From a virus (lineage: Duplodnaviria > Heunggongvirae > Uroviricota > Caudoviricetes), in the IMG/VR virus record IMGVR_UViG_3300032321_001382: a stretch of DNA of 64,000 nucleotides; one strand, written 5' to 3'. How positions within the stretch are numbered: position 1 is the stretch's first letter; each line of letters opens with the position of its first letter. Shown piece by piece: positions 27,489 to 61,650 of the stretch. The translations under genes were made by a program, and so were the position numbers. Below the pieces are notes generated by a model that ran no database searches, was not told where the DNA came from, and saw only the letters and a program-made list of their open reading frames with translations.

Positions 27489-30400
27489 TGTACCTATATC
27501 CAGTTTACCATTTACTAGTTCGGTAAATCCAACTGCCTTAGTACCCATAGTTCAAAATGGGATTACTTGCTCTACCTATGCTTGCTTATTAGGAAGTGGT
27601 GGAGGCGGAGGTGGTGGTAATGTTACTTGTTTAGTAGCTGGAAGTGGAGTTATTTTGAGTCCAACGACTGGTGTGGGTGTAGTAACAGTTACTAGTACGG
27701 GTAGTGGCTCAAGTGGTTCAAGTGGCTCTGCTGGAACAAGCGGCTCGAGTGGATTGTCTTTTGGTACAAGTGGTACAAGTGGTTTATCTTTTGGTACAAG
27801 TGGTACAAGTGGCGCAAATGGTACAAGCGGCTCAAGCGGGTCGAGTGGAATAAATGGTTCTAGTGGACAAACATTTGGTACAAGCGGAACTAGTGGTTTA
27901 TCTTTTGGTTCTAGTGGTACTGCTGGTACAAGTGGTTTATCTTATGGTACAAGTGGGACTAGTGGAGCTAATGGAACGAGTGGTTCTAGCGGTTCTAGTG
28001 GTTTCTCTTATGGTACAAGTGGAACTAGTGGTTTATCTTTTGGTTCTAGTGGTACAAGTGGTTTATCATTTGGTACTAGTGGTACTAGTGGCTCAAGTGG
28101 GTCTAGTGGCTCTAGTGGTACAACTTTTGGTTCTAGTGGTACATCTGGTTTATCTTATGGTACTAGTGGTACATCTGGTAGTTCAGGCTCTAGTGGTGCT
28201 ACTTTTGGTACTTCTGGTTCTTCAGGCACTTCTGGCTCTAGTGGATTAAGTTTTGGAACAAGTGGTACATCTGGCTCTAGTGGTACAACTTTTGGTACTA
28301 GTGGTACTAGCGGTACTAATGGTTCTAGTGGGTCAAGCGGTTTATCTTATGGTACAAGTGGAACAAGTGGCTCAAGTGGAGCTGCTGGTACTAGTGGTTT
28401 TACATATGGCACTAGTGGAACTAGTGGTTCGAGTGGAGCTGATGGAACTAGTGGAGAGACATATGGTACAAGTGGAACTAGTGGTTCGAGTGGAGCTGCT
28501 GGAACTAGTGGACAGACATATGGCACTAGCGGAACTAGTGGCTCAAGTGGAAGAAATGGCTCAAGTGGAACTAGCGGTTCAAGTGGAATTTCATTTTTCG
28601 GAACAACAAGTGGAACTAGCGGTACAAGTGGCTCAAGTGGAGCTGCTGGAACTAGTGGAGAAACATATGGTACAAGCGGCACTAGCGGGTCAAGCGGGAC
28701 CAGTGGCTCGAGTGGAACTAATGGCTCAAGTGGGACTAATGGCTCAAGCGGGACTAGCGGGACTAGTGGCTCGAGTGGGACGACTGGGACTAGCGGTTCA
28801 AGTGGTTCTGCTGGAACTAGTGGATTGTCTTTTGGCACAAGTGGAACTGCGGGAACCAGTGGAGAAACATTTGGTACAAGCGGTACTAATGGTACAAGTG
28901 GCACTAGTGGGTCTAGCGGGTCTAGTGGCTCCAGTGGTTCGAGTGGCTCGAGTGGGACTAGCGGGACTAGCGGTACAAGTGGTTCGAGTGGCTCGAGTGG
29001 TTCAAGTGGTTCGGCGGGAACGAGCGGTGCTACATTTGGAACAGCAGGAACCAGTGGTTCGAGTGGCTTAAGCGGTACAAGTGGTGTTAATGGATTAAAT
29101 GGTACAAGTGGTGTTAATGGTACAAGTGGCGTTAATGGTGTTAATGGTACAAGTGGGTTAAATGGAACGAGTGGCGTTAATGGAACGAGTGGGTTAAGCG
29201 GTACAAGTGGTTCTAGTGGTTCTAGTGGCTCAAGTGGTTCTGCTGGAACTAGTGGAGCAACATTTGGTTCAAGCGGTACAAGTGGCGTTGGAGGTATATT
29301 AATACTTGGTTCTGGTGCTAATTCTACAGAAAGATGCGGCGTTAATAATACGGCATCTGGCGCTTATTCATTCGCTGGCGCTGGTCAATGCAATATTGCT
29401 TGTGGTTGTGGTTCTTCAGTTATAGGTGGTCAATGTAATAGTGCTTGTGGAGCATTTACTGGTGCATTTGGTTGTAACCTTACTAATACACAAGCTTGTA
29501 CATTTATGGCTAACAACTTTGTTGTTGGTGACTTTATATCTTTTGGTGGATGTGGATGTGGTGTTAGTATAGATAATAGTGGAAAGTTATGCTTACAAGC
29601 TGGCGGAGGTGGCGGCGGTGGTGGTATAATAGTACTTGATAGTGGATGTAACTCATCTGTAAGATGTGGTGTAGGTAATTCAGCTACAGGAGCTTATTCA
29701 TTCGCTGGTGGTGGTCAATGTAATACTGCTTCAGGTAACTGCTCATTTGTTGGTGGTGGTTTTTCTCACTCAAATTGTGGCGTTTATTCTACAATAGTAG
29801 GGGGTCTTTGTAATTTAGCTTGTGGTGCTTGTAATGTATTTATAGGTGGTGGTATATGTCATAGTGCGTTAGCTGCTTCTACTACAATTGTAGGTGGGGT
29901 ATGTAATTATACTTGTGGAGCACATTCTTTCATAGGGGGTGGATTTGGTAATCGCACTCTAGCTCTTTGTTCAACTATTGTGGGAGGTTGTTGTAATTTT
30001 ATACTTGGCGGAACTTCTTATGGTTTCATAGGTGGTGGAAGTAATAATTGTGTCGCATATAGTACATCTCAAGGAAATTATGGAGTAGTCGTAGGTGGTA
30101 ATGGTAACACTGCTGGACCTAATTCTGCTGTAGTAGGTGGAAGTGGTAATACCGCTAGTACTTATAATATGTTTATAGGTGGTGGTGTTAATAATAAAAT
30201 ATGTGCAGACCATCAAAACGGTGTTATTGTTGGAGGTTGTGCTAATATAATATATCGTGGTTACAATAACTTTATAGGCGGTGGTCAAGCAAATTTTATT
30301 TGTGTTCCCACATTTGGTAGTGCATTTGGAACTTTAGTGGGTGGTTGCACAAATTGTATGTGTGGTCAATGTGGTTTTATTGGAGGTGGTGCTAAAAATC

Positions 30401-33226: not shown

Positions 33227-33231
33227 AATTG

Positions 33232-33302
33232 ATGCTTCACTAAGATTCGAACTTAGACTAAGAGAACCAAAAACTCTGGTGCTACCATTACACTATGAAG
33301 CA
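33232..33302 (-). tRNA. tRNA, anticodon UUG (Gln) by my fold; imperfect anticodon stem
   Basis: Minus-strand sequence TGCTTCA-TA-GTGT-AATGGTA-GCAC-C-AGAGT-TTTTGGT-TCTCT-TAGT-CTAAG-TTCGAAT-CTTAG-TGAAGCA-T. It has a good acceptor, D arm and T arm (TTCGAAT loop) and one T-T mismatch in the anticodon stem. Confidence 0.5.
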
Positions 33303-33308
33303 TTATTG

Positions 33309-33395
33309 CGGAAGGTCAGGGATTCGAACCCCAGATACCATTTCTAGTATGCTAGTTTTCAAGACTAGTGCATTCAACCGCTCTGCCAACCTTCC
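33309..33395 (-). tRNA. tRNA-Ser (anticodon UGA), class II with long variable arm
   Basis: Minus-strand sequence GGAAGGT-TG-GCA-GAGCGGTTGAA-TGC-A-CTAGT-CTTGAAA-ACTAG-CATACTAGAAATGGTATC-TGGGG-TTCGAAT-CCCTG-ACCTTCC-G. 87 nt, with a 3-bp D stem and an 18-nt variable arm typical of tRNA-Ser. Confidence 0.8.
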
Positions 33396-33396
33396 T

Positions 33397-34005
33397 TTAT
33401 TTCCTTTTAACATACAAGCAATCAAATTGAAAATCCCAACATCTTTTCTTATCAACTAGCGAAAAACCCCTATCTAAAAGATATTTATTTATCTCACTAT
33501 CTATTTTTTGATTTTCAAAACAAACTCTCTCTTCCGTTTCGATTTGTATAGCTTTTATTTCATTTATCTTATCACCTAGACCATCTAAAACCTCATATCC
33601 ATGACCCTCTACATCAATTTTAATTAAATCAATTTGGAAATCAAAGGTATCTAGTCTTATAGACTTTACTATATTTTTCTCATATTCTAGATTGTCAACA
33701 TGAAAGGATTTTTTTATAGAAGAAATACCTCTAAGTAGTTCGTTGTCAGACACAACTGATAAAAATTCTATCTCACCATTTTCATTAGAAGCAGCTACAT
33801 TGTATACTTTATACTTATAATTATCAATTATGTTATTATATGACTTTACATCAGCTTCTATTATGTGACAATTTTCAGTATTTAAATTCCAATACTTGGA
33901 AACATAATCAGTATCCTTACCATCTCTGCTACCTACCTCCATAAAAGAAGTTGGTTTAAAATAAGGTTTTAATATATCTGTAAGTTGTCTTAAGTCGTTT
34001 CTCAT
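33397..34005 (-). CDS. FkbM-family methyltransferase
   Basis: 202 aa; SFMEVGSRDGKDTDYVSKYW matches the FkbM SAM-binding block (f.DiGAn.G). Confidence 0.55.
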   Translation of the reverse strand: MRNDLRQLTDILKPYFKPTSFMEVGSRDGKDTDYVSKYWNLNTENCHIIEADVKSYNNIIDNYKYKVYNVAASNENGEIEFLSVVSDNELLRGISSIKKSFHVDNLEYEKNIVKSIRLDTFDFQIDLIKIDVEGHGYEVLDGLGDKINEIKAIQIETEERVCFENQKIDSEINKYLLDRGFSLVDKKRCWDFQFDCLYVKRK

Positions 34006-34622
34006 TTTGATTGTATATTGGATTCAAACTCTTTATTTTGAACTATTGTATCAAATGGAATTACAATCCTAGTATTATATAGACCACTTTGGTTTGAATT
34101 CAAACTCATATGCTGTAATATTTTAGCATAAAAATTATCTATTTCCATACCACTAGGTATAGCCATATTAATTATATCATCATATATTTTATGTTTTAAA
34201 GCATAAGCATGAGCGCAAACAATTTGGTTTCTGAAAAAATTCTCTACCAATCCTCCAAAATATAATAAATCCCAATCATTAAGAATAGATTCGTTTAGCC
34301 CTAGTATTTTACTTGGATTATCTAAAATTTGTACATCATCTTCTAGAATTAAAATTTTGCCATATCCTTTTTCCTTTGCTATTTTAACTATTCCCAAATG
34401 AGAAGCACGACACCCTAAAGAGTTTAAAATATACTTATCATCTATTTTGTTAAAATTCCTCCAATACTTAGGTTCTGGTATCTCTGTAAAGCTAATAGCA
34501 TCAAACCTTTCAAAGTTTGTTATACCAAATTTATCAAACTGCGCTAATAGGTTATTTTTCCTATTAACATCTTTTGCTAAATTTATATAAAATATTTTGT
34601 CAAAATACTTATTAATGTCCAT
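34002..34622 (-). CDS. glycosyltransferase family 25 (LPS/LOS-type)
   Basis: 206 aa; MDINKYFDKIFYINLAKDVNRKNNLLAQFDKFGI...FDAI is the GT25 N-terminal signature. Its start overlaps the upstream gene. Confidence 0.65.
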   Translation of the reverse strand: MDINKYFDKIFYINLAKDVNRKNNLLAQFDKFGITNFERFDAISFTEIPEPKYWRNFNKIDDKYILNSLGCRASHLGIVKIAKEKGYGKILILEDDVQILDNPSKILGLNESILNDWDLLYFGGLVENFFRNQIVCAHAYALKHKIYDDIINMAIPSGMEIDNFYAKILQHMSLNSNQSGLYNTRIVIPFDTIVQNKEFESNIQSK

Positions 34623-35443
34623 TATTTGCTATATCTAAAGTATTTAAAAAACCATTCGTGATTAGTGTAAATCCAATCACATACTTCTTTGGTTAATAAT
34701 GCTTTGGCTTTAGAAGGAGTCAACTTAAGTTGTTTTCTAATAGTGTGGTCTCCAAAAGCTCCATAAACCTCATCATCTTCTTTAGTAACTTGTTCAATAT
34801 TATCAAAATCGTGTTTAAAGTGTGTAATACCTAAATATTGATAAATCTTAGTCATGGTACTATCTGGATAAAGGCATAAATCCTCATATTTTATAAATAA
34901 AATCTTAGCATCATTTCCAGTTCGGATGATTTCTTGTAATCTTTCAATAGCCATACCCACTGGAGGATTCTGTAGCCAAAAGTCGATACGCTTAGGAACC
35001 GTTGTGGCTTGACCAGTTGACCAATTCACAATTCCTTGGCTCTTTTCTGGATTTTTTCTAAAATTACCCTCCATAGAAGCAAAAACATCTCTCAAATCCC
35101 TAACCATACAAATAATCTTAGGTTCTTCACCTCTAATGCTTGTAAGAAAATCGAAATGAATACCCCAACCTCTGCTTTTGTCAATAACATACTTTTTATC
35201 AGTAATAGAATTATAGAAAGCATCCATACCCTCTTTGCAAAAGGCTGTATAACCCTTTTTCATTAGTTCTTTGTCTTGGGCAATAAATTCTGGTGATGTG
35301 CTATAATTCTCTCTAGCAGCAAAAATAAGCTCTAAAACACCACTCGTAGGAGTTGCGTAAATATCTGGATTTTGTGCTAAAATGTTCTGAAGCATTGTGC
35401 TTCCAGCTCTAGGTAGTGAGCTTTGAAAAAATAAATTTTCCAT
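34622..35443 (-). CDS. PAPS-dependent sulfotransferase
   Basis: 273 aa; 5'-PSB-like LPRAGSTML and 3'-PB-like MVRDLRDVFASM motifs. Confidence 0.7.
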   Translation of the reverse strand: MENLFFQSSLPRAGSTMLQNILAQNPDIYATPTSGVLELIFAARENYSTSPEFIAQDKELMKKGYTAFCKEGMDAFYNSITDKKYVIDKSRGWGIHFDFLTSIRGEEPKIICMVRDLRDVFASMEGNFRKNPEKSQGIVNWSTGQATTVPKRIDFWLQNPPVGMAIERLQEIIRTGNDAKILFIKYEDLCLYPDSTMTKIYQYLGITHFKHDFDNIEQVTKEDDEVYGAFGDHTIRKQLKLTPSKAKALLTKEVCDWIYTNHEWFFKYFRYSK

Positions 35444-35726
35444 AATGTAGTTTCGCTTTAAAAAATGATTAATTTTACTACACGAAAGTAAAAATAAAAT
35501 ACCATAAAAGGAAATAAATTATGAAAAAAGTTGACATTCGTTTTAACACCAATTTCCCATCTAGAAGCCAATACGAATGGCGTGTATTAATTAATGGAGA
35601 TGGGGTTTCTATTCTTACATTGTTTCCTATACTACAGCTACATTTATTGAGGGTCATGGTATGAAATGGCACTTATCTACAGAAGCAAATGAAATAGAGA
35701 TTGATAACTCTTTAATTACCAACAAA

Positions 35727-36803
35727 TTAGCTATTATTAAGTAAGTGTTCTATATCAGTTAATACCCTATCTAGAGATATTTTCTTATGACACTCGAATT
35801 GTCTAGGTGTATCCTCATGCTCTGGACACCAATTCCAATCTCCTTTGTTAAATTTGAATAATTCATTGTTCCAACATCCATTACATATGCTTGTATCACT
35901 TATTCTGGTACAATCTGACTGAAATTCATGTGTATTTACCGAGAAGTTGGAAATCATCACAACCTTTTTATTTAAAGCCCAAGAAAGCCAAGACAATCCG
36001 CTTGATAAGCCAATAAAGAACTCTGAGTGATGTATTATATTGCTTACATTTTGTATTGACTTATCTTCTATATTAACAATATTTTTAAACTCGTTTTTCT
36101 CCATAGAAACCTCAATTACCTTATATCCTCTTTCATTTAATGAGTCAATTAATTCCTGCCAATAGTACCAAAGTTTACATTGGGATGTAGAAAAGGTAGA
36201 TATAGCTATATATTTCTCTTTTATAGGGCGCTCCATTACTTCAAAATCTACATATGGTTTAATTTCCTTAAATGGAATATTTAAAATATTTGTTGCGTTT
36301 TTTTGTAAGGGGATAGTGGATGGATTTACTGGTTCTTTTTTATCATCGTAAAACCAACCTAACTCGAATCCAGCATGAATATTTTCTATTAACTCTCCTT
36401 TTTCAGTAAAATTTATATGTGGATATTTGTTACGAAATAGATTATTATGAAAACATGATACAATAACATCACATTTGTAAAAATTTCTAAACTCTTCGCA
36501 ATAAGGCATCCAAGCTATAGTATCACCTAATGAACTACTTTCAAAATTTATAAGCACTCTTTTACCTTGAATTTCATCCTTTATACTTATTTTTTTTACA
36601 AAATTACCCTCAAATGTCACTAAAACAAAAATATCAGAAAAGTACTTTTTATCTAATCTAGCCCAACTACTCGGTTTTAACTTTGTTTGATAAATTATTT
36701 CATTCTTCTCTAAAAAACAAACATCGTATTCCCTATCTAACCCACCATCATTAAGTATTTCAAAAAATAAACCATCTACATGATGAATATTATATGTAAT
36801 CAT
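35727..36803 (-). CDS. GT9-like glycosyltransferase with C-terminal Cys4 cluster (resembles autotransporter protein-heptosyltransferases)
   Basis: 358 aa. KRVLINFESSSLGDTIAWMPYCEEF is an ALGD-type N-motif, and FFIGLSSGLSWLSWALNKKVVMI matches the DSG..HLA block. The C-terminus carries a CNGCW...WCPEH...FECH cysteine cluster. Confidence 0.5.
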   Translation of the reverse strand: MITYNIHHVDGLFFEILNDGGLDREYDVCFLEKNEIIYQTKLKPSSWARLDKKYFSDIFVLVTFEGNFVKKISIKDEIQGKRVLINFESSSLGDTIAWMPYCEEFRNFYKCDVIVSCFHNNLFRNKYPHINFTEKGELIENIHAGFELGWFYDDKKEPVNPSTIPLQKNATNILNIPFKEIKPYVDFEVMERPIKEKYIAISTFSTSQCKLWYYWQELIDSLNERGYKVIEVSMEKNEFKNIVNIEDKSIQNVSNIIHHSEFFIGLSSGLSWLSWALNKKVVMISNFSVNTHEFQSDCTRISDTSICNGCWNNELFKFNKGDWNWCPEHEDTPRQFECHKKISLDRVLTDIEHLLNNS

Positions 36804-37840
36804 TTATATAAGTTTAAATATTTTTCTTTAGTTAATCTAGAGGATACATTATTGTCAAACTTTGTCACGCTAGAATACATATAAGACAATGATTTACAAA
36901 CATTTATCCAATCATATTTTAATCTAGATTTACTCATTTCGTATACCCATACATCATAGTTTCCAATTATATGTTTTATACCATCAATTAGGCACATAGT
37001 CATTAAAGAGCCAGATGGTAATGGTTCCTGAATTACATACATACCATCAATATCTTTTGTACCCTTGTAAGTACCAACGATGGGTAAACAACAACTAGCT
37101 GATTCCAATAATGTCAAATTTGGATGACCAGCTTCTAAAAAAGAAGGATGTAAAAATATTGTGTGTTCTTTATATATATCTAAAAGTTCATTTTCAGTTG
37201 GGTTATTATCTATAATTCTTAGATTGCTATATTCTAATAGGTCTTTATGCAAATCAAAAAATTGTTTATTTGCTTGGGCTCCTACTATTGTTATGGGCAA
37301 GTTTAATTCTTTTGCAGCATTTATTCCATGTATAAAACCCTTTCTATCAATACTTTGGTCTCCAGCTAATCCATTATTAGCTACCATAAGTAATTTATGG
37401 TTTACATAATCATTTTTAAAACTTGGAGTAAAAAAGCTAGTGTTTACGCCATGTGACAAGTAAAATAATTTATCTGTTTCTTCAAAATATTGAATTAAAT
37501 GCTCTGCGTGTGTTATTGAGAATATAGAACCTTTCATAGCTTCTAAATTTTGCTTGTATACGTCACTATCTTTTCCATACCATTCTGTGTGGTGGTCATG
37601 CAATGAGAAAATATATGGTATATTACGACTTTTTGCCTCTAAGCATAGATTAGCCATATGTATATGAACTATGTCATATTCCATTGGTCTGATATCGTTT
37701 AGGTACTTAATATCAACACTATGTCCTAGTTCTTCAAAAGAACTTTTATATTCTCTTATAATTTTCTCAACAGCTCCCCAACCCATTTCCCCAATAGGTT
37801 TAATTGGAATCATTCCCGTTTGCAATTGGCAAATTCTCAT
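36800..37840 (-). CDS. GT4-family (GT-B) glycosyltransferase
   Basis: 346 aa; the C-terminal FLHPSFLEAGHPNLTLLESASCCLPIVGT matches the GT4 E-x7-E region. Confidence 0.65.
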   Translation of the reverse strand: MRICQLQTGMIPIKPIGEMGWGAVEKIIREYKSSFEELGHSVDIKYLNDIRPMEYDIVHIHMANLCLEAKSRNIPYIFSLHDHHTEWYGKDSDVYKQNLEAMKGSIFSITHAEHLIQYFEETDKLFYLSHGVNTSFFTPSFKNDYVNHKLLMVANNGLAGDQSIDRKGFIHGINAAKELNLPITIVGAQANKQFFDLHKDLLEYSNLRIIDNNPTENELLDIYKEHTIFLHPSFLEAGHPNLTLLESASCCLPIVGTYKGTKDIDGMYVIQEPLPSGSLMTMCLIDGIKHIIGNYDVWVYEMSKSRLKYDWINVCKSLSYMYSSVTKFDNNVSSRLTKEKYLNLYK

Positions 37841-40527
37841 ATAAATGTTTTTTCTTGTTTATCAATAAGTGAATATCCATTCAATTGTGTCGTTATCCTA
37901 TGCTTCAAAATACCCATCTTGTATGGAGATTTTTTAAAAATAGTATTGAAATATATATCAGCAGCATCCCATTTGTGAGTCCTCAATGTTTCAAACAACC
38001 ATTTTTTAGTATATTTTGGGAACATAATACATTGTAAACCAATTATCTTGTCGGTAATAAACAATAAATCTTGATTAGGTATTTCTTCAATTACATTTGA
38101 CTGCAACCACCCATGCTCTAAAGTTCTAGTATCTCCAAATGACATATAACCAATATTGTTTTTAGTAACAATTTTCAAAGAATTACTTATTATATCTATA
38201 AACTCATTTATAGTACTTTCTATTAAACAATCTCCCTCACAAACTATAAGAAAATCTTCGTCATCGAACTCTGTTAATATAGCATTTTTAAAAGATTCGT
38301 AACACCCATAATGAGAGGGTGTAAGAGCTGTTCCAATTTCCTGAATGCGATTTTCTTCAAATAAAAACATAGATACGCAAGCTGGTCTTAAACAATTACC
38401 CCTTGGTGGCAAATCGCTATATGGCTCGTTTGTGTGTAATACATACTCCCATCCAAAATCCTTAACTCTTTCTAAAGACTCTTTGCTTATTTTATGCTTT
38501 TCATCATTAAGTGTAGTTTGAATATGGACTAATTTTATTTTTGGCATTTTATTTTTATGCTTGAAGCTTCCAGTTTTATCGTAATCATTTATATTTTTTT
38601 CATTCATTAAATATTTTTCAACTTTATATATGTCATCTCCATCGTAAAACTCTAGTATTATTTCAATTTCTTTTCCATCATAATAAAACTCTTTTTTAAA
38701 CTCCCTAGTCTTATTTATTTGGAAACTATTATTGTAAAACTCTAATCCATTTTCTTTCATTGTAACATTTATCTTCCTTTCATCTATGTTATAAGTAAAA
38801 AAGTAAAACATATATTTATTTACAAACTCAATAGGCAAAATTGAGTAGTACTCTGAATTTGAAGCTACGCCAACACCGCTATTGGTTAAAAATGTATCTT
38901 GTTCATTTTCAATAAGATGAACGTCATTTTCATTAAATGATAATACCTTCTTAACTAGATAATCTTCTAAAAAATTCTGAGCTCCAATATTTTCACAAGC
39001 ACGATTGTAAGACTCTGCATCTCTTACATTATCAAAATTGTGTAAAAAGAAATCAACGCTAAAAGTCATTCCATTTGTTTGTATACCTCTTCCAAATGGC
39101 GTAGCTAGTGTTCCCAAATAGGCTTGACATTTGCCAGATTCTATATAACTAAGAGATTCATTTATAGTAGCTAAGTCATCCTCATGTACAACAACATCAT
39201 AGGTATTATAAAAGAAACGCCTATATCCAAGCTCCCTTGCTAGTTTGGCTCCATTGTACATATTGGTGAGAACAGTTAATGATTGATTGCTATTCTTTAA
39301 TCCATTGATATTTATATCAACCTCGTATTCATTATTGTAATTAAAAAACTTTGTATAAAAACTATGATGCGTCAAGGGATTATTCGCGTCATATACATAA
39401 TAATCAACCATTTTTTGTATTTCTAAATCCACGGGGTAATGTGAAACAAGCATTATCTTCCTTTCTAATTTATAAAGACTTTGTATTGTATCCTTAGTAA
39501 GCTGAACCCTACTTTTTAAATTAGGATAAGTACCAATTATAATAAGCTCTTCTCCATTTACCTTGGGCTTTGGGTTAGTGATTCTCAATATAATATTAGA
39601 ATCCTCCTTCAAATCATCAACTAAAAAATTGAAATTATGCTCATTATTATACCTATTCAAATAAACATCTAGATTAAATAATAGCTTAGGTACATCATCA
39701 AATTTTATTGCCTCTTTGATAACTATTGGGTTTAGTTCTTTGTTATACTTGTCGCCCCTAGATGGAAATAAAAACAAATCGCAAGCCCTAATAAATTCTT
39801 CGGTATCATCTCTTTCTCCCCAAATGATACAATTACTTGGCTTATTATTCATTAGTGGCTGCCAATAACTTGAAAAATTTTCAGCAGTATTACCTAGAAA
39901 ATGAAATTTAATTTTGTAATCTTCTAAACTTTTAGCCAATTCAAATGCATATTTCTGATTCTTTCTAGGGGTAAATAATCCAATAACAACAACGTGCTTA
40001 TAATCGTCTTGCAGTCCTAGTATTTTTCTACTTTCTTTTCTATCTCTATTATATTTATCTACTGGGTACTCTATCAAACTTGTAGGAACATCAAAATCTC
40101 TATATTTTAATAACGTATAAGGACTTACAAAAACAAACTCATCTGGTAAAAAAACCTTGTCTTCAACTTTAAAGCTAGAGTCATGTGTCGTTTCAACTAT
40201 CTTGTATGTCCTATCTTTTTTATATATCAATTTAGCAATCTCACTATCCATAAACATTTCAGGAAACTCCTCCATAGCAATAACGCTTGGATTATATGCT
40301 TGTATTATATTGACTATTAGGCTCTTATCTTCTCCTAGGGAAATAAAGTGGTCGTTTCCGATTAAATCTATAATACGATTTCTTTGTACTATAAAAGTAT
40401 TCGATAGGAAGCTGTACTCTATCAATAATATTTCAAAATCATCTTTTAATAATTCGATTTTATTGGCTGTCACTTGTGGAGCACCGCCAGTTGAACAATG
40501 TGGGGTTATAACTAAAAGTTTTTTCAT
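37837..40527 (-). CDS. 896-aa multidomain glycosyltransferase (N-terminal GT-B-like plus additional domains)
   Basis: N-terminal MKKLLVITPHCSTGGAPQV is Rossmann-like; large central and C-terminal regions follow. It is translationally coupled to flanking glycosyltransferases through 4-nt overlaps. Confidence 0.55.
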   Translation of the reverse strand: MKKLLVITPHCSTGGAPQVTANKIELLKDDFEILLIEYSFLSNTFIVQRNRIIDLIGNDHFISLGEDKSLIVNIIQAYNPSVIAMEEFPEMFMDSEIAKLIYKKDRTYKIVETTHDSSFKVEDKVFLPDEFVFVSPYTLLKYRDFDVPTSLIEYPVDKYNRDRKESRKILGLQDDYKHVVVIGLFTPRKNQKYAFELAKSLEDYKIKFHFLGNTAENFSSYWQPLMNNKPSNCIIWGERDDTEEFIRACDLFLFPSRGDKYNKELNPIVIKEAIKFDDVPKLLFNLDVYLNRYNNEHNFNFLVDDLKEDSNIILRITNPKPKVNGEELIIIGTYPNLKSRVQLTKDTIQSLYKLERKIMLVSHYPVDLEIQKMVDYYVYDANNPLTHHSFYTKFFNYNNEYEVDININGLKNSNQSLTVLTNMYNGAKLARELGYRRFFYNTYDVVVHEDDLATINESLSYIESGKCQAYLGTLATPFGRGIQTNGMTFSVDFFLHNFDNVRDAESYNRACENIGAQNFLEDYLVKKVLSFNENDVHLIENEQDTFLTNSGVGVASNSEYYSILPIEFVNKYMFYFFTYNIDERKINVTMKENGLEFYNNSFQINKTREFKKEFYYDGKEIEIILEFYDGDDIYKVEKYLMNEKNINDYDKTGSFKHKNKMPKIKLVHIQTTLNDEKHKISKESLERVKDFGWEYVLHTNEPYSDLPPRGNCLRPACVSMFLFEENRIQEIGTALTPSHYGCYESFKNAILTEFDDEDFLIVCEGDCLIESTINEFIDIISNSLKIVTKNNIGYMSFGDTRTLEHGWLQSNVIEEIPNQDLLFITDKIIGLQCIMFPKYTKKWLFETLRTHKWDAADIYFNTIFKKSPYKMGILKHRITTQLNGYSLIDKQEKTFI

Positions 40528-41459
40528 ATAATTTCTAATATTTTATTAAATACTTGTTCTGTTGATGGGTGACATTCATATGTCTTTTTGTTTTCTAAGC
40601 ATCCTATAAGTGGGGGAACTCCTTGAATATCGCCCCATTGCTTAACTCCATGCTTCATATTAGAGGCACATTCCAAATTACACGAACCACGAACATAATT
40701 GTATTTGTAGGTTTGACTTAATTTTCTATATGGAGCTCTAAATTCTGGCTTTATAGAAGAGCCTAAATGTATAATATTAGAATCAGTTGTTCCAGCTAAA
40801 TGTAATAAACCAGAGTCCATGGTTACAAAACAAGAAGCCTTGTCAATAAGATTCCAGCAATCAGAAATTGATGTTTTATTCATAAGATTCAATCCATTTT
40901 CTATACTAAAATTAAAAACTGGCTTTTCAACATCAAAAAACCCCATCTCTTTTGAGTCTTTCCCAATAGAGACAACGCTAATACCATTATCATTAAGCAT
41001 TTTCGTCAACAACATCCAATTTATATCTCCCCAAGTTCTACTTTCCCAAGTACTTACTGGGTGTATTAGAACATATCTATCTGGTATTGTGATATTTAAC
41101 TCTTCAATAGGACGATAAAAACACTCTAACTCGTCTTTACCTAGCATAAATCCCAAGCTGATTGCATGAAATTGTCTAATATCTATCATATTGTGCTTGT
41201 ACTCAATCCCCTTTTCATTTTTACCACCAATATTGTAAAATGAATTATGTACTATGTAATTTTTATTTATATAATCCATATTTACCGAGCTTATTTTTAA
41301 ACTTTTATCTACATAGATATTGTTTTTAAATAGCTCTGGCATTAAAGATAGTATGGTTATCTTTTGTTCGTAAGATTCTGATAATTTTTTAATAGTTGGA
41401 GTTGAGCAAATCAAGTCTCCAAGTCCCTTGCACTCACCTAGATTTAAACAAACTTTCAT
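40524..41459 (-). CDS. GT9 heptosyltransferase-like glycosyltransferase with C-terminal Cys cluster
   Basis: 311 aa. LIHPVSTWESRTWGD...DSGLLHLAGTTDSNIIHLGSS is the classic GT9 C-domain. The C-terminal region carries CNLECAS...C...YECH. Confidence 0.65.
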   Translation of the reverse strand: MKVCLNLGECKGLGDLICSTPTIKKLSESYEQKITILSLMPELFKNNIYVDKSLKISSVNMDYINKNYIVHNSFYNIGGKNEKGIEYKHNMIDIRQFHAISLGFMLGKDELECFYRPIEELNITIPDRYVLIHPVSTWESRTWGDINWMLLTKMLNDNGISVVSIGKDSKEMGFFDVEKPVFNFSIENGLNLMNKTSISDCWNLIDKASCFVTMDSGLLHLAGTTDSNIIHLGSSIKPEFRAPYRKLSQTYKYNYVRGSCNLECASNMKHGVKQWGDIQGVPPLIGCLENKKTYECHPSTEQVFNKILEII

Positions 41460-41554: not shown

Positions 41555-41932
41555 ATGAAAATAGAAATAAGCACTGGAGAAGCACTAGATAGGTTATCGA
41601 TATTGAAAATAAAGTCTACCAAAATAAAAGACCAAAATAAATTAATAAATGTTATAAACGAGTATACATATCTAAAAAATGTAATATATCAAGAGCTTCT
41701 TCTGGATGAGGAAAACAACTTTTTTATATCACTATATAATATCAATAATCTTTTATGGGAAGTCGAGGATGAGTTAAGAAGATTAGAAGTTGATATGATT
41801 TTTAATGATAAATTTATTAATTTCGCCAGAGAGGTTTATAAACTAAACGACCAAAGAGCAAAAATAAAAAAAGATTGTAATGTTTTTCACAAATCAACAT
41901 TTGTTGAAGAAAAGTCTTACAATCATATGTAA
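41555..41932 (+). CDS. hypothetical protein
   Basis: 125-aa ORF at the strand switch. Confidence 0.45.
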   Translation: MKIEISTGEALDRLSILKIKSTKIKDQNKLINVINEYTYLKNVIYQELLLDEENNFFISLYNINNLLWEVEDELRRLEVDMIFNDKFINFAREVYKLNDQRAKIKKDCNVFHKSTFVEEKSYNHM

Positions 41933-41964: not shown

Positions 41965-42408
41965 ATGATAATATTACTTTATGGGCAACCAGCCTCTGGA
42001 AAAACTACACTCTCCAACGAATTGATGAGAATTTACGATAAGGAAGACGCTATTCAAATAGATGGCGATAAGTGGAGAGATGTTACAAAAAATAAAGATT
42101 ATAGCAAAGAAGGTAGAAATCGCAACCTAAAAGGTGCTTTTGATATGGCTATATACTTAGAAAGGGCTGGTTATATGCCAATTTTAAGCTTTGTAACACC
42201 CTATGAAGAATATAGGAAATACTTGGCAGAAAATAGCAATAAACTTATTGAAATATACTTGTTTTATAATGAAAGCGTAGATAGAGGTAGAAATGATTTT
42301 TTTGCAAAAGACTTTGAAAAACCATCCAAGGACTTTTTAGCATTAAATACCTCTTTGTTTTCAGTAGAACAATGTGTTAATGAAATAATTAACTATATTA
42401 AAATTTAA
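41965..42408 (+). CDS. cysC: adenylylsulfate (APS) kinase
   Basis: 147 aa. LLYGQPASGKTTLS (P-loop) and IDGDKWRD...SKEGRNRNLKGAFDMAIYLERAGYMPILSFVTPY align motif-for-motif with the CysC blocks LDGDNVR...S..DR.ENIRR..EVA....AG.....AFISP. Confidence 0.7.
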   Translation: MIILLYGQPASGKTTLSNELMRIYDKEDAIQIDGDKWRDVTKNKDYSKEGRNRNLKGAFDMAIYLERAGYMPILSFVTPYEEYRKYLAENSNKLIEIYLFYNESVDRGRNDFFAKDFEKPSKDFLALNTSLFSVEQCVNEIINYIKI

Positions 42409-42414
42409 TAATAT

Positions 42415-42813
42415 ATGTGGGAAAATAAAGTTTATGTAAAAAGTAGTTTAATGCCAAAGGCAACCCAATATGCACTATTTATTGGAAGATGGCAACCACT
42501 GCATGATGGTCACAAAGCTCTTTTTCAACAAGTCTTGGATAGAGGAGAAAGTGTTTGTATAGCTATAAGGGATGGGGAAACAAACGAAAAAAATCCGTTT
42601 ACTCCACAAGAGGTTTTAGAGAAAATATCAGAATATTATAAAGACAATATCGTTTCAGGAAAAGTCAAAGTCATTATCATACCAGATATTTGTAGCGTTA
42701 ACTTTGGAAGAGGGGTAGGTTATGATATCATAGAGCATATTCCCCCATCAGAAATAGCAGACATTAGCGCAACTAAGGTGCGTGAAGAAATGCGTAAAAA
42801 AGGTGAATTATGA
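42415..42813 (+). CDS. cytidylyltransferase-family nucleotidyltransferase (TagD-like, HxGH)
   Basis: 132 aa; FIGRWQPLHDGH is the (T/H)xGH motif and the C-terminal ADISATKVREEM matches ISTTxIKEEI of glycerol-3-phosphate cytidylyltransferase. Confidence 0.65.
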   Translation: MWENKVYVKSSLMPKATQYALFIGRWQPLHDGHKALFQQVLDRGESVCIAIRDGETNEKNPFTPQEVLEKISEYYKDNIVSGKVKVIIIPDICSVNFGRGVGYDIIEHIPPSEIADISATKVREEMRKKGEL

Positions 42814-43031
42814 GCTTAGGAGTAGATAAAAAACGACATATTGCCAAGACTATTAGTTATAGGGTTTTAAGCACCCTAATTGGCTTTTTAATAATGTGGG
42901 CTATCAGTGGCTCGCTTAAGGTTGGAGCCGCCTTTGGAGTGGCTGAAATCGTCTATAAACCCATACAATACTATATCCATGAAAGGATATGGTATAAATA
43001 CATCAAATTCGGGTTAAAAAATAAAAAATAA
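42810..43031 (+). CDS. DUF2061-like small membrane protein
   Basis: 73 aa; KTISYRVLSTLIGFLIMWAISGSLKVGAAFGVAEIVYKPIQYYIHERIWYK matches the DUF2061 pattern. By my recollection this family is often encoded next to sulfate-activation genes. Confidence 0.5.
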   Translation: MSLGVDKKRHIAKTISYRVLSTLIGFLIMWAISGSLKVGAAFGVAEIVYKPIQYYIHERIWYKYIKFGLKNKK

Positions 43032-55147: not shown

Positions 55148-57772
55148 ATGAGTAAATATAGAAATTTTGCACCTTCAAGATTTGTACCAGTAGAAGAACC
55201 TGCTGTTTTTGATGATTATATTGACAATACTTATGAATTACAAGTAGCTCAAGCTAATACCTATGCACAAGAACTTGCTAACCAACAAGCAGCACAATTA
55301 GCTTACGAACAAAGAGTGGCAGCTGAAGCTGAAGCCGCAGCAGCGGAAAATCTAAGATTAGAACAAGAGTTAATAAACATAATTGCGGAAAGACAAAGAC
55401 GAGCCGAACTTCAAGCAGCAATTGATGCACAAGCTGCAAGAGATGCACAAGCCATTAGAGATGCACAAGCCGCAGAGGCGGCTCGACAATATCAAATGTA
55501 TATTACTCAGCTAGCTTTAGCCGCAGCAGCAGCAAAAGCAGAGGCTGATAGGATTGCCGCCGCAGATAGAGCCGCAGCGTTAGCAGCAGAAAAAGCAGCA
55601 GCAGATAAGATAGCAGCCGAAATAGCCGCAGCCGCAGCAAAGGCAGCTGCCGATAAAAAAGCAGCCGATGAAGCAGCCGCAGCCGCAAAAGTAATTGCTG
55701 ATAAGAAAGCAGCCGATGATGCAGCCGCAGCAAAAGCAGCAGCTGATAAACTAGCAGCCGATTTATTAGCAGAAGAAGTTGCCTTAGCAAAAACAATTGC
55801 AGATAGAAAAGCAAGAATAGATGCCGCAGCCGCAGCAAAAGTAATTGCTGATAAGATAGCAGCTGATGAAGCAGCAGCCGCAGCCGCAAAAATCATTGCT
55901 GATAAAAAGGCAGCAGATGAAGCAGCCGCCGCTGCAAAAGTTATCGCCGATAAGAAAGCAGCAGATGAAGCAGCCGCCGCAAAAGTGATTGCCGATAAAC
56001 TAGCAGCTGATTTGTTAGCAGCACAACTTGCAGCAGAACAAGCTGCAATAGATAAAGCTGATGCTCTTAAAGCAGCTACAGCCGCTGCAGCAAAGTTATT
56101 AGCAGCAGAAAAAGCAGCATGGGTTAGATATGAATGTCCAGATGGATTTACTTTAGATGCTAATAATCAATGCGTTGCAATTGTGGTTTGCAATGTAGAT
56201 TATACATGGAATGGCACTGATTGTGTAAAATATGATGCTACAATTACATATACTTGCCCTTCGGGATATAGTTTAGGCACTGACAATAAATGCAAGGCTG
56301 ACTTTACTTGTGCAGCAACAGATACTTGGAATGGTGAGAAATGCGTGCCTTATGTAAAACCAGATTATGTTAGATATATCTGTGATTTGGCTGGATACGT
56401 TATGGATGCTAATGGAAAATGTGTTAAAGATGTTACTTGTGCAGATGGATTTACTTTTGATGGGAAAGAGTGTGTAAAATTCACACAAGTATGGATACCA
56501 GATTTAGTTTGCGATACTGGGTTTACTATGAACAAGGATGGCAAATGCGTTAAAGATGTAACTTGTAAAGATGGGGAAACTTTCGATGGCGAAAAGTGTA
56601 TCAAATATGTTATTCCCGATTATACAAGATATGTTTGTGATGTTGCTGGATATACAATGGATGCTAATGGTAAATGCGTTAAAGAAATCACTTGCAAAGA
56701 TGATGAAACTTTTGATGGAAAGGCTTGTGTTAAATTTGTAAAAGTTTGGACTCCGAATCTTGTTTGCGATGCTGGTTATACTCTTTTACCTGAATTAATG
56801 TTGAGTGGAAGGGTCTATCAAGAAGCTAAATGTGTTAAAGACGTAACTTGTAAAGAGGGTGAAACCTTTGATGGAGAAAAATGTATCAAATATGTAATTC
56901 CTGATTATACAAGATATGTTTGTGATGAAGGATATACAATGGATGCTAATGGCAAATGTGTTAAAGAAATCACTTGTGCAGATGATGAAACTTTTGATGG
57001 AAAGGCTTGTGTTAAATTCGTAAAAGTTTGGACCGCCAATCTTGTTTGTGATGAAGGATACACAATGAACAAAGATGGTAAATGTGTTAAAGATGTAGTT
57101 TGTAAAGATGGATATACTTTTGATGGAGAGAAATGTATTGAATATGTAGTTCCAGCTTATACAAGATATGTATGTGATGAAGGATATATACTAAATATTG
57201 ATAATAAATGCGTAAAAGAGGTTGCTTGCGCAGATGGATTTACATTTGATGGTAAAGAGTGTGTTAAATATACCGCCGTATGGACTGCTAATCTTGTTTG
57301 CGATGAGGGATATACAATGAACAAAGATGGTAAATGTGTTAAAGATGTCACTTGTAAAGATGGATATACTTTTGATGGAGAGAAATGTATTGAATATGTA
57401 GTTCCAGCTTATACAAGATATGTATGCGATGAAGGATATACATTAGATGCTGACAACGATTGTGTTAAAGAAGTAACTTGTGACGATGATTACACTTGGG
57501 ATGGAAAAAAATGTGTTGAATATATTTCTGATGCAAAATGCAAGGAGGGATACACTTGGGATGGCAAAGATTGTATTGCTTGTCCAGAAGGATTTGCGTT
57601 TAATGATGATTTAGAGTGCGTAGAAACTATAGAAACAACAACATCTACTTGCCCAGATGGGTATGAATTTAATAAAGAGGGTAAATGTATTAAAAGTACA
57701 ACAACAATAATACTCACTTGCCCAGACAATTATGTATTGGCTGATGATAAATTATGTTACCCTAAAAAATAA
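55148..57772 (+). CDS. 874-aa surface protein: Ala-rich coiled coil plus about 12 tandem Cys-containing repeats of roughly 40 aa
   Basis: Residues about 20-320 are AAADK(K/I)AADEAAAAAKVIADKKAAD heptad-like repeats. Residues about 330-874 are repeats of the type Y(T/V)RYVCDEGYTMDANGKCVKE(I/V)TC.DG.TFDG.KC(V/I).(F/Y)V with near-identical DNA copies. Confidence 0.75.
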   Translation: MSKYRNFAPSRFVPVEEPAVFDDYIDNTYELQVAQANTYAQELANQQAAQLAYEQRVAAEAEAAAAENLRLEQELINIIAERQRRAELQAAIDAQAARDAQAIRDAQAAEAARQYQMYITQLALAAAAAKAEADRIAAADRAAALAAEKAAADKIAAEIAAAAAKAAADKKAADEAAAAAKVIADKKAADDAAAAKAAADKLAADLLAEEVALAKTIADRKARIDAAAAAKVIADKIAADEAAAAAAKIIADKKAADEAAAAAKVIADKKAADEAAAAKVIADKLAADLLAAQLAAEQAAIDKADALKAATAAAAKLLAAEKAAWVRYECPDGFTLDANNQCVAIVVCNVDYTWNGTDCVKYDATITYTCPSGYSLGTDNKCKADFTCAATDTWNGEKCVPYVKPDYVRYICDLAGYVMDANGKCVKDVTCADGFTFDGKECVKFTQVWIPDLVCDTGFTMNKDGKCVKDVTCKDGETFDGEKCIKYVIPDYTRYVCDVAGYTMDANGKCVKEITCKDDETFDGKACVKFVKVWTPNLVCDAGYTLLPELMLSGRVYQEAKCVKDVTCKEGETFDGEKCIKYVIPDYTRYVCDEGYTMDANGKCVKEITCADDETFDGKACVKFVKVWTANLVCDEGYTMNKDGKCVKDVVCKDGYTFDGEKCIEYVVPAYTRYVCDEGYILNIDNKCVKEVACADGFTFDGKECVKYTAVWTANLVCDEGYTMNKDGKCVKDVTCKDGYTFDGEKCIEYVVPAYTRYVCDEGYTLDADNDCVKEVTCDDDYTWDGKKCVEYISDAKCKEGYTWDGKDCIACPEGFAFNDDLECVETIETTTSTCPDGYEFNKEGKCIKSTTTIILTCPDNYVLADDKLCYPKK

Positions 57773-60018: not shown

Positions 60019-60028
60019 TAACACAAAA

Positions 60029-61627: not shown

Positions 61628-61650
61628 TAAAATATATTTAAAACACAAAT

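What the first reader, a model, noticed from the sequence alone, without database searches (positions are those of the whole stretch)
41965..43031. Sulfate-activation and CDP-alcohol genes (cysC, TagD-like cytidylyltransferase, DUF2061) encoded by the virus
41965..42408 aligns block-for-block with APS kinase (P-loop, DGD, S..R.(E)NI(R/K), AG....(A/S)F(I/V)(S/T)P). With the sulfotransferase at 34622 it gives two of the three steps needed for sulfation: activation of APS to PAPS, then sulfotransfer. No ATP sulfurylase is visible, so the host presumably supplies APS.

The adjacent 132-aa HxGH / ISxTK(I/V)R protein is TagD-like. It could make a CDP-glycerol or CDP-ribitol donor, that is, teichoic-acid-like or phospho-polyol decoration.

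DUF2061 is a small membrane protein. By my recollection it is commonly syntenic with cysC or cysN in cellular genomes. Its presence here supports a functional sulfur-activation cassette rather than a stray kinase.
Basis: partly seen in the sequence, partly recalled or inferred. Interest (0 to 1): 0.7.

Follow-up and report, generated by a model that had tools for sequence, protein, structure and literature searches.

The report
Phage sulfate-activation cassette for sulfation
Three tightly packed phage genes (a short APS kinase, a tiny NMNAT-derived adenylyltransferase and the membrane protein DUF2061) form a widespread mobile cassette that most likely makes the sulfate donor PAPS for the phage's own sulfotransferases, and the tiny adenylyltransferase may be a previously unrecognised kind of ATP sulfurylase.

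Summary
The three ORFs are real and match the predicted Pfam families: PF01583, PF01467 and PF09834.

The 147-aa kinase is an APS-kinase-family enzyme. It keeps the APS-binding residues and has a shortened lid. Its five best structural matches are all APS kinases.

The 132-aa HxGH protein is not TagD-like. It descends from archaeal/NadM-type NMN adenylyltransferases and lacks the segment between strand 3 and the GY(D/E) strand.

Across more than 300 viral and metagenomic loci this nucleotidyltransferase is almost always next to an APS kinase or fused to one, in both orders. Some fusion partners are canonical full-length CysC. It is present at all 63 testable phage DUF2061 loci. Sulfotransferases are usually adjacent. 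Conventional ATP sulfurylase genes (cysDN or Sat) accompany it in only one locus.

Best reading: a portable sulfate-to-PAPS module serving phage glycan sulfation. The kinase role has high confidence. The nucleotidyltransferase as a minimal, non-canonical ATP sulfurylase has about 0.5 probability and rests on genomic inference only. The role of DUF2061 is unknown beyond its association with sulfate activation. Viral cysC itself is already known, but has been read as an assimilation gene.

The parts
41965..42408 (+). Short-lid APS-kinase-family P-loop kinase (147 aa), the proposed PAPS-forming step
42415..42813 (+). Minimal HxGH nucleotidyltransferase (132 aa) derived from the archaeal/NadM NMNAT lineage, a candidate non-canonical sulfate adenylyltransferase
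42810..43031 (+). DUF2061 small membrane protein (73 aa), with one hydrophobic stretch of about 33 residues flanked by strongly basic termini. Its start overlaps the nucleotidyltransferase stop (ATGA).
   Evidence: PF09834 at 2.7e-17. At least 85% identity across the 120 best hits. Downstream of the nucleotidyltransferase in 68/78 viral loci. All 63 testable DUF2061-anchored viral loci carry the nucleotidyltransferase. Lies in cellular cysQ-DUF2061-cysC-cysDN-sulfotransferase operons.
41555..41932 (+). DUF6165/DUF4254 protein (125 aa), first gene of the + strand unit and a recurrent neighbour of the cassette and of GT9 genes. Function unknown.
   Evidence: PF19662 at 2.2e-12 and PF14063 at 1.4e-6. 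Found again beside the cassette in L004, L008, L011, L037-L039 and L152.
34622..35443 (-). PAPS-dependent sulfotransferase (273 aa), the presumed consumer of the cassette's product
   Evidence: Sulfotransfer_3 at 2.3e-16 and Sulfotransfer_1 at 6.7e-15. Motifs PRAGST and RDLRDVFAS. 42-58% identical to sulfotransferases directly abutting the kinase in L001 and L007.
33397..41459 (-). Glycan-modification island: FkbM methyltransferase (33397-34005), GT25 (34002-34622), sulfotransferase, GT9 (35727-36803), GT4-like (36800-37840), 896-aa GT1-containing protein (37837-40527) and GT9 (40524-41459). It is divergent from the cassette.
   Evidence: Pfam hits. Similar islands accompany the cassette in L004, L008, L011, L032 and L036.

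Best explanation
The three genes are one translationally coupled unit. Together they form a mobile sulfate-activation cassette that supplies PAPS to phage-encoded sulfotransferases, which decorate a glycan built by the neighbouring glycosyltransferase and methyltransferase island.

Step 2, well supported: the 147-aa protein is a short-lid APS kinase that converts APS to PAPS.

Step 1, inferred: the 132-aa HxGH protein is an adenylyltransferase that evolved from NMN adenylyltransferase by losing the segment between strand 3 and the GY(D/E) strand. It most likely adenylylates sulfate (ATP + sulfate -> APS + PPi). On that reading it is a minimal, non-canonical ATP sulfurylase, and kinase plus nucleotidyltransferase form a split PAPS synthase. 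This is not a TagD-type CDP-alcohol synthase.

DUF2061 is a small membrane protein that belongs to sulfate-activation gene neighbourhoods in both cells and phages. Its exact role, whether sulfate supply at the membrane or anchoring of the enzymes, is inferred only.

Step 3: the sulfotransferase at 34622-35443, which has intact PAPS-binding motifs, transfers the sulfuryl group. The acceptor is unknown.
For: Kinase:
- The residues matching the APS-binding positions of Penicillium APS kinase are invariant across the family. That structural mapping is from my memory of the structure papers.
- Sulfotransferase genes abut the kinase in unrelated phage backbones. They were found in 41/53 testable NT-anchored loci.

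Nucleotidyltransferase coupling:
- The kinase lies upstream on the same strand in 77/77 testable viral loci, with a median gap of 9 nt.
- The kinase is adjacent or fused in 71/80 metagenome loci, in four arrangements.
- Fusions exist in both orders: phrog_10255 and the phage Salvo protein annotated 'kinase', plus P0366 and P0378.
- NT-CysC fusions have a canonical full-length APS kinase of 139-189 bits with a complete lid.

ATP sulfurylase slot:
- The neighbourhoods contain sulfotransferase, APS kinase and sometimes CysQ, every part of the PAPS cycle except ATP sulfurylase.
- cysD, cysN or Sat motifs are absent from 80/80 viral and 80/80 metagenome loci and from the window.
- The cellular O-antigen cluster L133 has cysQ, a sulfotransferase and an NT-APSK fusion, with no cysDN.
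- Cellular DUF2061 operons that do have cysDN lack the nucleotidyltransferase.
- The segment between strand 3 and the GY(D/E) strand of NMNAT does not align with the NT profile and is missing from the compact model. That is consistent with a very small second substrate.

DUF2061:
- Cellular synteny is shown.
- NT co-occurrence is 63/63.
- Conservation is very high.

The NT+DUF2061 pair without a kinase in a T4-like lineage still fits an APS-forming enzyme, because host APS kinase or APS reductase could use the product.
Against: - There is no biochemical evidence for any of the three proteins.
- The nucleotidyltransferase lacks the Sat-family signatures QxRNPxHxxH and GRDHAG. No Sat appears among the 60 profile hits shown of 71. 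Any ATP sulfurylase activity would therefore be an independent invention.
- In one cellular locus (L101, an Acidobacteriota MAG) the NT-CysC fusion lies directly beside cysD and cysN. There the nucleotidyltransferase is not needed as an ATP sulfurylase, although that copy has His in place of the near-invariant Arg99.
- In the Salvo, Sano and DLP_6 phages the kinase-NT fusion sits among early and nucleotide-metabolism genes with no detectable sulfotransferase or DUF2061.
- At least five loci with adequate flanks have the nucleotidyltransferase without a kinase. A T4-like lineage has NT+DUF2061 with neither kinase nor detected sulfotransferase within 6 kb.
- The virus-versus-cell bias confounds the apparent mutual exclusion of the nucleotidyltransferase and cysDN.
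- The kinase falls below NCBIfam equivalog cutoffs and lacks the canonical lid, so its specificity could have drifted.
Confidence: 0.55

Rival explanations
1. The kinase is CysC, the host supplies APS, and the 132-aa protein is an independent TagD-like cytidylyltransferase. It makes CDP-glycerol or CDP-ribitol for a teichoic-acid-like decoration.
For: PF01467 is the generic cytidylyltransferase-like family. The island contains many glycosyltransferases that could use an activated polyol. Cassettes without the nucleotidyltransferase exist (L001-L003, L013), so host APS can suffice.
Confidence: 0.08
2. The 132-aa protein is still an NMN adenylyltransferase serving NAD salvage or NAD reconstitution against host NAD-depleting defences. 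It only shares a variable genome region with the kinase.
For: The closest sequence and structure relatives are archaeal NMNAT, NadM and NadR. JGI names many members NMN adenylyltransferase. NadR-type proteins combine an NMNAT domain with a P-loop kinase domain. The kinase-NT fusions in Salvo and DLP_6 lie in early, nucleotide-metabolism regions.
Confidence: 0.08
3. Kinase and nucleotidyltransferase act together on a non-sulfur substrate. One option is a CoA-synthase-like route (adenylylate X-phosphate, then phosphorylate the 3'-OH). Another is a kinase-then-nucleotidyltransferase route to an NDP-sugar such as ADP-heptose for the two GT9 heptosyltransferase-like enzymes.
Confidence: 0.12
4. The cassette is an auxiliary metabolic module for assimilatory sulfate reduction, boosting host cysteine synthesis, as viral cysC has been interpreted in the literature. 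On this view it does not serve sulfation.
For: Published surveys file viral cysC under assimilatory sulfate reduction (bioRxiv 10.1101/2021.01.05.425418 and PMC10914622). The T4-like lineage carries NT+DUF2061 among classical auxiliary genes (Hsp20, UvdE, peptide deformylase) without sulfotransferases.
Against: In this window and in most related loci the kinase is next to PAPS-dependent sulfotransferases and glycan-modifying genes. No cysH, sulfite reductase or cysK was seen in the window.
Confidence: 0.1
5. The nucleotidyltransferase has another, unforeseen role in PAPS metabolism. It might be a regulatory or nucleotide-binding partner of APS kinase and DUF2061, or act on PAP or PAPS, rather than making APS.
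For: L101 shows the NT-CysC fusion together with cysDN in one cluster. DUF2061 is linked to the nucleotidyltransferase even more tightly (63/63) than to the kinase (44/63).
Against: The catalytic HxGH and ISxTxxR motifs and several arginines are invariant across hundreds of sequences, which argues for catalysis. No known HxGH-family reaction other than sulfate adenylylation fits the PAPS cycle; this last point is based on established enzymology.
Confidence: 0.07

Closest known systems
APS kinase (CysC, EC 2.7.1.25; Pfam PF01583)
   Different: It is only 147 aa. The lid (RDxKGLYKKAxxGEIxxFTG in canonical enzymes) is replaced by a shorter DRGRNxxFAxDFExP. Scores are below the NCBIfam equivalog cutoffs.
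Bifunctional PAPS synthase (animal PAPSS with APS kinase then ATP sulfurylase; bacterial Sat-CysC fusions such as Aquifex 2gks)
   Same: An APS kinase is coupled, by adjacency or by fusion in either order, to an HxGH-fold adenylyltransferase. It serves sulfotransferases.
   Different: The adenylyltransferase is about 130 aa instead of about 350-400 aa. It has no PUA-like domain and no QxRNPxHxxH or GRDHAG motif. It derives from the NMNAT lineage, not the Sat lineage. Its activity is unproven.
Archaeal/NadM-type NMN adenylyltransferase (e.g. M. jannaschii 1f9a)
   Different: The segment between strand 3 and the GY(D/E) strand is deleted. New invariant residues appear (R52, GRxVGY). It is never found with NadV or Nudix, and is coupled instead to APS kinase and DUF2061.
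Cellular sulfate-activation operons (Salinimicrobium cysQ-DUF2061-cysC-cysD-cysN-sulfotransferase; by my recollection also B. subtilis cysH-cysP-sat-cysC)
   Same: A membrane protein, a sulfate-adenylylating enzyme, an APS kinase and a sulfotransferase are encoded together. DUF2061 is shared.
   Different: The phage version replaces the two-subunit GTP-dependent CysDN with a single tiny nucleotidyltransferase. It lacks CysQ and is carried on diverse phage backbones.
Viral cysC auxiliary metabolic genes (Kieft et al. preprint 2021; COBRA paper, PMC10914622)
   Same: The same kind of phage-encoded cysC, reported in the preprint as coming almost entirely from marine and freshwater samples.
   Different: Those papers read cysC as assimilatory sulfate reduction. 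Neither mentions sulfotransferases, and the COBRA paper does not mention DUF2061. Neither was searched for the 132-aa nucleotidyltransferase.
TagD / glycerol-3-phosphate cytidylyltransferase
   Same: Same HxGH nucleotidyltransferase superfamily and a similar small size.

Membership tests
APS kinase (PF01583 / CysC) | Pfam gathering threshold | tested here: met
   48.9 bits against a cutoff of 21.1, E 9.3e-13, but only profile positions 4-108 of 152.
APS kinase (PF01583 / CysC) | NCBIfam equivalog or subfamily thresholds (TIGR00455, NF004041 and others) | tested here: not met
   49-50 bits against cutoffs of 127-244.
APS kinase (PF01583 / CysC) | P-loop, DGDxxR, and the aromatic/Arg/Asn and SFxSPY APS-binding positions | tested here: met
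   GQPASGKTT, IDGDKWR, Y46, R51, N54 and SFVTPY align to these positions in solved APS kinases. They are invariant in 26 family members. The residue roles are from my memory of the P. chrysogenum structure papers.
APS kinase (PF01583 / CysC) | Full mobile lid (RDxKGLYKKAxxGEIxxFTGIxxPYExP) | tested here: not met
   Replaced by the shorter DRGRNDFFAKDFEKP. Canonical lids are seen in the NT-CysC fusions for comparison. The model has low pLDDT (67-77) in this region.
APS kinase (PF01583 / CysC) | Fold closest to solved APS kinases | tested here: met
APS kinase (PF01583 / CysC) | Phosphorylates APS to PAPS | not testable with these tools
   Needs an enzyme assay or cysC complementation.
TagD-type glycerol-3-phosphate cytidylyltransferase | Closest relatives are GCT/TagD enzymes | tested here: not met
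Archaeal/NadM NMN adenylyltransferase | GRxQPxHxGH, NPFT and ISxTxxR motifs | tested here: met
Archaeal/NadM NMN adenylyltransferase | Curated family thresholds | tested here: not met
   NF002243 gives 41.3 bits against 127. TIGR01527 gives 33.9 bits against 181.
Archaeal/NadM NMN adenylyltransferase | Central segment that, by my recollection of the NMNAT structures, binds NMN | tested here: not met
   MJ0541 residues of about 63-109 do not align with the NT profile. The model goes from strand 84-90 to strand 105-109 with no intervening helix. The family is uniformly about 130 aa.
Sat-type ATP sulfurylase (PF01747) | QxRNPxHxxH and GRDHAG motifs and the PUA-like N-terminal domain | tested here: not met
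   The sequence has GRWQPLHDGH and FGRGVGY. There is no N-terminal domain, no Pfam hit, and no Sat among the 60 profile hits shown. It is therefore not a member of this family. The claim is only that it may work like one.
Sat-type ATP sulfurylase (PF01747) | HxGH Rossmann-like catalytic core | tested here: met
Sat-type ATP sulfurylase (PF01747) | Forms APS from ATP and sulfate | not testable with these tools
   Needs an assay or cysD/cysN complementation.
DUF2061 (PF09834) | Pfam gathering threshold | tested here: met
   63.4 bits against 23.1, covering profile positions 1-51 of 52.
DUF2061 (PF09834) | Synteny with sulfate-activation genes in cellular genomes | tested here: inconclusive
   Met in 3 cellular loci: Salinimicrobium twice and Ginsengibacter. 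Not met in 4 Pelagibacteraceae single-cell contigs. The sample is small.
PAPS-dependent sulfotransferase (partner gene 34622-35443) | 5'-PSB and 3'-PB PAPS-binding motifs | tested here: met
   PRAGST and RDLRDVFAS. Pfam Sulfotransfer_1 and Sulfotransfer_3.

The most novel reading that the evidence does not exclude
The 130-aa HxGH protein is a new, minimal class of ATP sulfurylase that arose from NMN adenylyltransferase. DUF2061 is its dedicated membrane partner that delivers sulfate. With a short APS kinase they form a portable three-gene sulfate-to-PAPS system that phages move between backbones. Some phages use it to sulfate glycans. T4-like phages that carry only NT+DUF2061 use it to raise APS supply in the host.
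Probability: 0.25. Interest if true: 0.85.

Novelty: new variant of a known kind. Interest (0 to 1): 0.66.

Why it matters
If the nucleotidyltransferase is an ATP sulfurylase, it would be a third, much smaller solution to sulfate activation, beside Sat and CysDN. It would also assign a pathway to a family of thousands of unannotated or mis-annotated proteins, currently labelled NMN adenylyltransferase, cytidylyltransferase or kinase. It would give DUF2061 its first functional context.

Independently of that, the synteny changes how viral cysC should be read. In these phages it sits beside sulfotransferase genes, so it probably feeds sulfation rather than cysteine assimilation. That matters when sulfur auxiliary genes are counted in viromes. 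It also points to sulfated glycans as a phage-controlled surface trait.

A 280-aa two-enzyme PAPS synthase would also be useful for in-situ PAPS regeneration in biocatalytic sulfation.

Tried and rejected
- DNA-level search of the cassette against GenBank phages found no match.
- TagD/CDP-alcohol reading: rejected on profile and fold ranking.
- NadR-like RNK+NMNAT reading: rejected because the kinase matches APS kinase far better than riboside kinase and because of the canonical CysC fusions.
- CoA-synthase-like reading: dephospho-CoA kinase is a poor match.
- ADP-heptose reading: GT9 is not a consistent neighbour and HldC ranks low.
- Unknown N-terminal domains fused to the nucleotidyltransferase (P0392, P0406, P0455) looked promising. 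By inspection they are Cys-rich, HNH-like homing-endonuclease-type sequences and are uninformative.
- The claim that kinase coupling is obligate was tested and weakened. At least five loci with adequate flanks, and a T4-like lineage, have the nucleotidyltransferase without a kinase.
- The simple claim that the nucleotidyltransferase replaces CysDN was tested and weakened by L101, where both occur together.
- Literature searches for DUF2061 function, for a small or NMNAT-like ATP sulfurylase, and for phage sulfation cassettes found nothing relevant.
- The promoter and terminator scan of the cassette was no better than shuffled sequence.
Full report
OBSERVATION. A 125-aa DUF6165/DUF4254 ORF (41555-41932) precedes them, and a holin-like ORF follows. 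The kinase and the nucleotidyltransferase (NT) are 6 nt apart. The NT stop and the DUF2061 start overlap as ATGA, so the three genes look translationally coupled. Pfam confirms all three predicted families: PF01583 at 9.3e-13, PF01467 at 3.2e-6 and PF09834 at 2.7e-17. On the opposite strand, 33397-41459 is a glycan-modification island. It holds an FkbM methyltransferase, GT25, a sulfotransferase, GT9, a GT4-like gene, an 896-aa GT1-containing protein and a second GT9. The sulfotransferase carries both canonical PAPS-binding motifs, PRAGST and RDLRDVFAS. The window is phage-like: giant Cys-rich ORFs, a Laminin_G_3 protein, holin-like and PG-binding-domain genes, and a weak terminase-like match.

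SYNTENY WITH SULFOTRANSFERASES. In unrelated phage contigs the short kinase directly follows one or two sulfotransferase genes (L001-L004, L007). L007 is a T4-like myovirus with gp13, gp15 and sheath genes. It has a methyltransferase-sulfotransferase fusion followed by kinase, NT and DUF2061 in the same order as the window. The cassette is therefore mobile between phage backbones.

COUPLING OF NT TO APS KINASE. PHROGs first showed that one 230-aa phage family (phrog_10255) covers the kinase with its N-terminal half and NT with its C-terminal half. This family is the protein annotated 'kinase' in Xylella phages Salvo and Sano and their Xanthomonas and Stenotrophomonas relatives; a similar fusion occurs in phage DLP_6. 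An exhaustive phmmer search of 1.84 billion representatives found 1276 relatives, many of them fusions. Pfam scans of ten of these showed three kinds of fusion. Some have a short APSK followed by NT (P0366, P0378). One has NT followed by a short APSK (P0477). Some have NT followed by a canonical full-length CysC of 139-189 bits over profile positions 1-150 of 152 (P0384, P0394, P0413, P0466). The alignment shows complete lids in those CysC halves and intact NT motifs. In 80 IMG/VR loci anchored on NT, the short kinase lies upstream on the same strand in 77 of 77 testable cases, with a median gap of 9 nt. DUF2061 lies downstream in 68 of 78, and a sulfotransferase is present in 41 of 53. None has cysD or cysN. 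In 80 metagenome loci seeded with the NT domains of the NT-CysC fusions, the kinase is adjacent or fused in 71. The arrangements are K>NT separate in 50, NT>K fused in 14, NT>K separate in 4, and K>NT fused in 3. None has cysD, cysN or a Sat motif.

DUF2061. The phage protein is very highly conserved, at 85% identity or more across the 120 best hits. It has one hydrophobic stretch of about 33 residues between strongly basic termini. A genome scan found cellular homologs. In two Salinimicrobium genomes the order is cysQ-like phosphatase, tandem DUF2061, full-length cysC (224 bits), cysD, cysN and a sulfotransferase. In Ginsengibacter the order is cysQ, DUF2061, cysC. In four Pelagibacteraceae single-cell contigs DUF2061 stands beside an alternative oxidase and an ABC-2 transporter, with no sulfur genes. 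No paper characterises DUF2061. In 63 testable DUF2061-anchored viral loci, NT is present in all 63 and the kinase in 44.

WHAT NT MOST LIKELY DOES. The recurrent neighbourhood contains a sulfotransferase, an APS kinase, sometimes the PAP phosphatase CysQ (L122, L133), and DUF2061. Every part of the PAPS cycle is there except the enzyme that adenylylates sulfate. NT is the one constant enzyme of unknown substrate. HxGH nucleotidyltransferases catalyse exactly this type of reaction, NTP + oxyanion -> NMP-X + PPi. Canonical ATP sulfurylase is itself an HxGH-fold enzyme that superposes on the model. Fusion of an adenylyltransferase to APS kinase in either order is the architecture of PAPS synthases. 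Loss of the segment between strand 3 and the GY(D/E) strand fits a very small second substrate. The cellular O-antigen cluster L133, on a 710-kb contig, has cysQ, glycosyltransferases, a sulfotransferase, an NT-APSK fusion and a Wzy-type gene, with no cysDN in the 20-kb locus. I therefore read NT as a minimal, non-canonical sulfate adenylyltransferase, and kinase plus NT as a split PAPS synthase. This is inference from genomic association and fold class. It is not a family membership, because the Sat signatures were tested and are absent.

EVIDENCE THAT CUTS THE OTHER WAY.
- In the Acidobacteriota contig L101 the NT-CysC fusion lies next to cysD and cysN and two sulfotransferase-glycosyltransferase fusions. 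A conventional ATP sulfurylase is already there. That NT copy has His for the near-invariant Arg99, which may or may not signify decay.
- The Salvo, Sano and DLP_6 fusions sit in early regions without a detectable sulfotransferase or DUF2061.
- At least five metagenome loci with adequate flanks have NT without a kinase. One abuts a Sulfotransfer_2 gene, and one has NT-DUF2061 with glycosyltransferase and methyltransferase genes. The others sit beside unrelated genes.
- Sixteen related loci from a T4-like lineage read Hsp20, UvdE, NT, sometimes a 2OG oxygenase, DUF2061, then peptide deformylase. They have no kinase or detected sulfotransferase within 6 kb. Their NT keeps every invariant residue.

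An APS-forming enzyme could still be useful alone, because host APS kinase or APS reductase could take the product. These cases nevertheless show that the coupling is not obligate. The apparent mutual exclusion of NT and cysDN is also confounded by most NT loci being viral.

COMPARISON WITH WHAT IS KNOWN. Viral cysC is an established auxiliary metabolic gene. The Kieft et al. preprint reports that marine and freshwater samples contained nearly all identified cysC. The COBRA paper reports 62 cysC genes in freshwater phage genomes, with high in-situ transcription. Both file it under assimilatory sulfate reduction. Neither mentions sulfotransferases, and the COBRA paper does not mention DUF2061. 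Neither was searched for NT. I found no paper describing a small or NMNAT-like ATP sulfurylase or a phage sulfation cassette. The kinase is therefore a new member of a known kind. The cassette as a sulfation-supply module, with a candidate non-homologous ATP sulfurylase and DUF2061, is a new variant of a known kind of system.

VERDICT. The cysC and sulfotransferase logic and the DUF2061 synteny hold. The TagD/CDP-alcohol idea does not. The statement that no ATP sulfurylase is present is true only for canonical enzymes. Confidence that the cassette supplies PAPS for phage sulfotransferases is about 0.85. Confidence that NT is the sulfate-adenylylating enzyme is about 0.5. Confidence that DUF2061 has a specific sulfate-supply role is about 0.2-0.3. 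Simple complementation of E. coli cysD, cysN and cysC mutants, together with a radiometric APS/PAPS assay, would settle the matter.

Noticed in passing
window 12007-23748 (+) and 55148-57772 (+): The giant 3913-aa ORF has 334 cysteines (8.5%), and an 874-aa ORF has 5.9% Cys. A batch Pfam scan of the window's other ORFs found cEGF (4e-17), Sushi/SCR (2.5e-15) and TIL (8e-8) domains. These are eukaryote-style adhesion modules in a phage, and the 874-aa ORF is the probable carrier. The giant ORF itself was not scanned.
   Followed up: partly
L285, L271, L282 and 13 related IMG/VR loci (e.g. L285:3601-7797): A T4-like phage lineage carries NT and DUF2061 without a kinase or detected sulfotransferase. 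They are embedded in an auxiliary-gene block: Hsp20, UvdE UV-endonuclease, NT, sometimes a 2OG-Fe(II) oxygenase, DUF2061, then peptide deformylase.
   Followed up: partly
P0392, P0406, P0455 (representative proteins, 321-378 aa): NT genes with a Cys-rich N-terminal extension that looks like an HNH-type homing endonuclease by inspection; Pfam found only the NT domain. This suggests a mobile endonuclease has inserted at or fused to the NT gene in some phages.
   Followed up: no
L005 (Xylella phage Salvo, record 15167-15913) and L006 (Stenotrophomonas phage DLP_6, record 129043-129774): Cultured phages encode a kinase-NT fusion among early and nucleotide-metabolism genes: MazG, a gene annotated cysteine dioxygenase, topoisomerase, an Fe(II) oxygenase and a Ser/Thr phosphatase. 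It is annotated only 'kinase' in Salvo and 'hypothetical protein' in DLP_6. No sulfotransferase or DUF2061 was detected nearby, so its use there is unexplained.
   Followed up: partly
window 41555-41932 (+); also L004, L008, L011, L037-L039, L152: A DUF6165/DUF4254 protein recurs next to the cassette and next to GT9 heptosyltransferase-like genes. Its function is unknown.
   Followed up: no
L101:7300-8259: The only locus where the NT-CysC fusion co-occurs with cysD and cysN (Acidobacteriota MAG). Its NT domain has His instead of the near-invariant Arg99. Two sulfotransferase-glycosyltransferase fusions of about 800-880 aa and an ABC-2 exporter lie alongside.
   Followed up: partly
window 26805-27488 (+), 33231-33395 (-), 28001-30000 and 60001-62000: A fatty-acid hydroxylase family gene (PF04116, 6.6e-25) lies in the phage. 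tRNA-Gln and tRNA-Ser lie at the end of the glycan island. Two GC-rich patches (0.46 and 0.43) stand out in a window otherwise at about 0.29-0.39 GC.
   Followed up: no
P0126, P0128, P0187, P0218, P0231: JGI labels some stand-alone 132-aa NT proteins 'adenylylsulfate kinase'. This may be annotation carry-over from NT-kinase fusions, so viral cysC counts based on such labels may include NT genes.
   Followed up: no
L018:4770-5273: In Salinimicrobium, DUF2061 is a tandem duplication in one 167-aa ORF (two Pfam stretches). This hints that the functional unit is at least a dimer.
   Followed up: no
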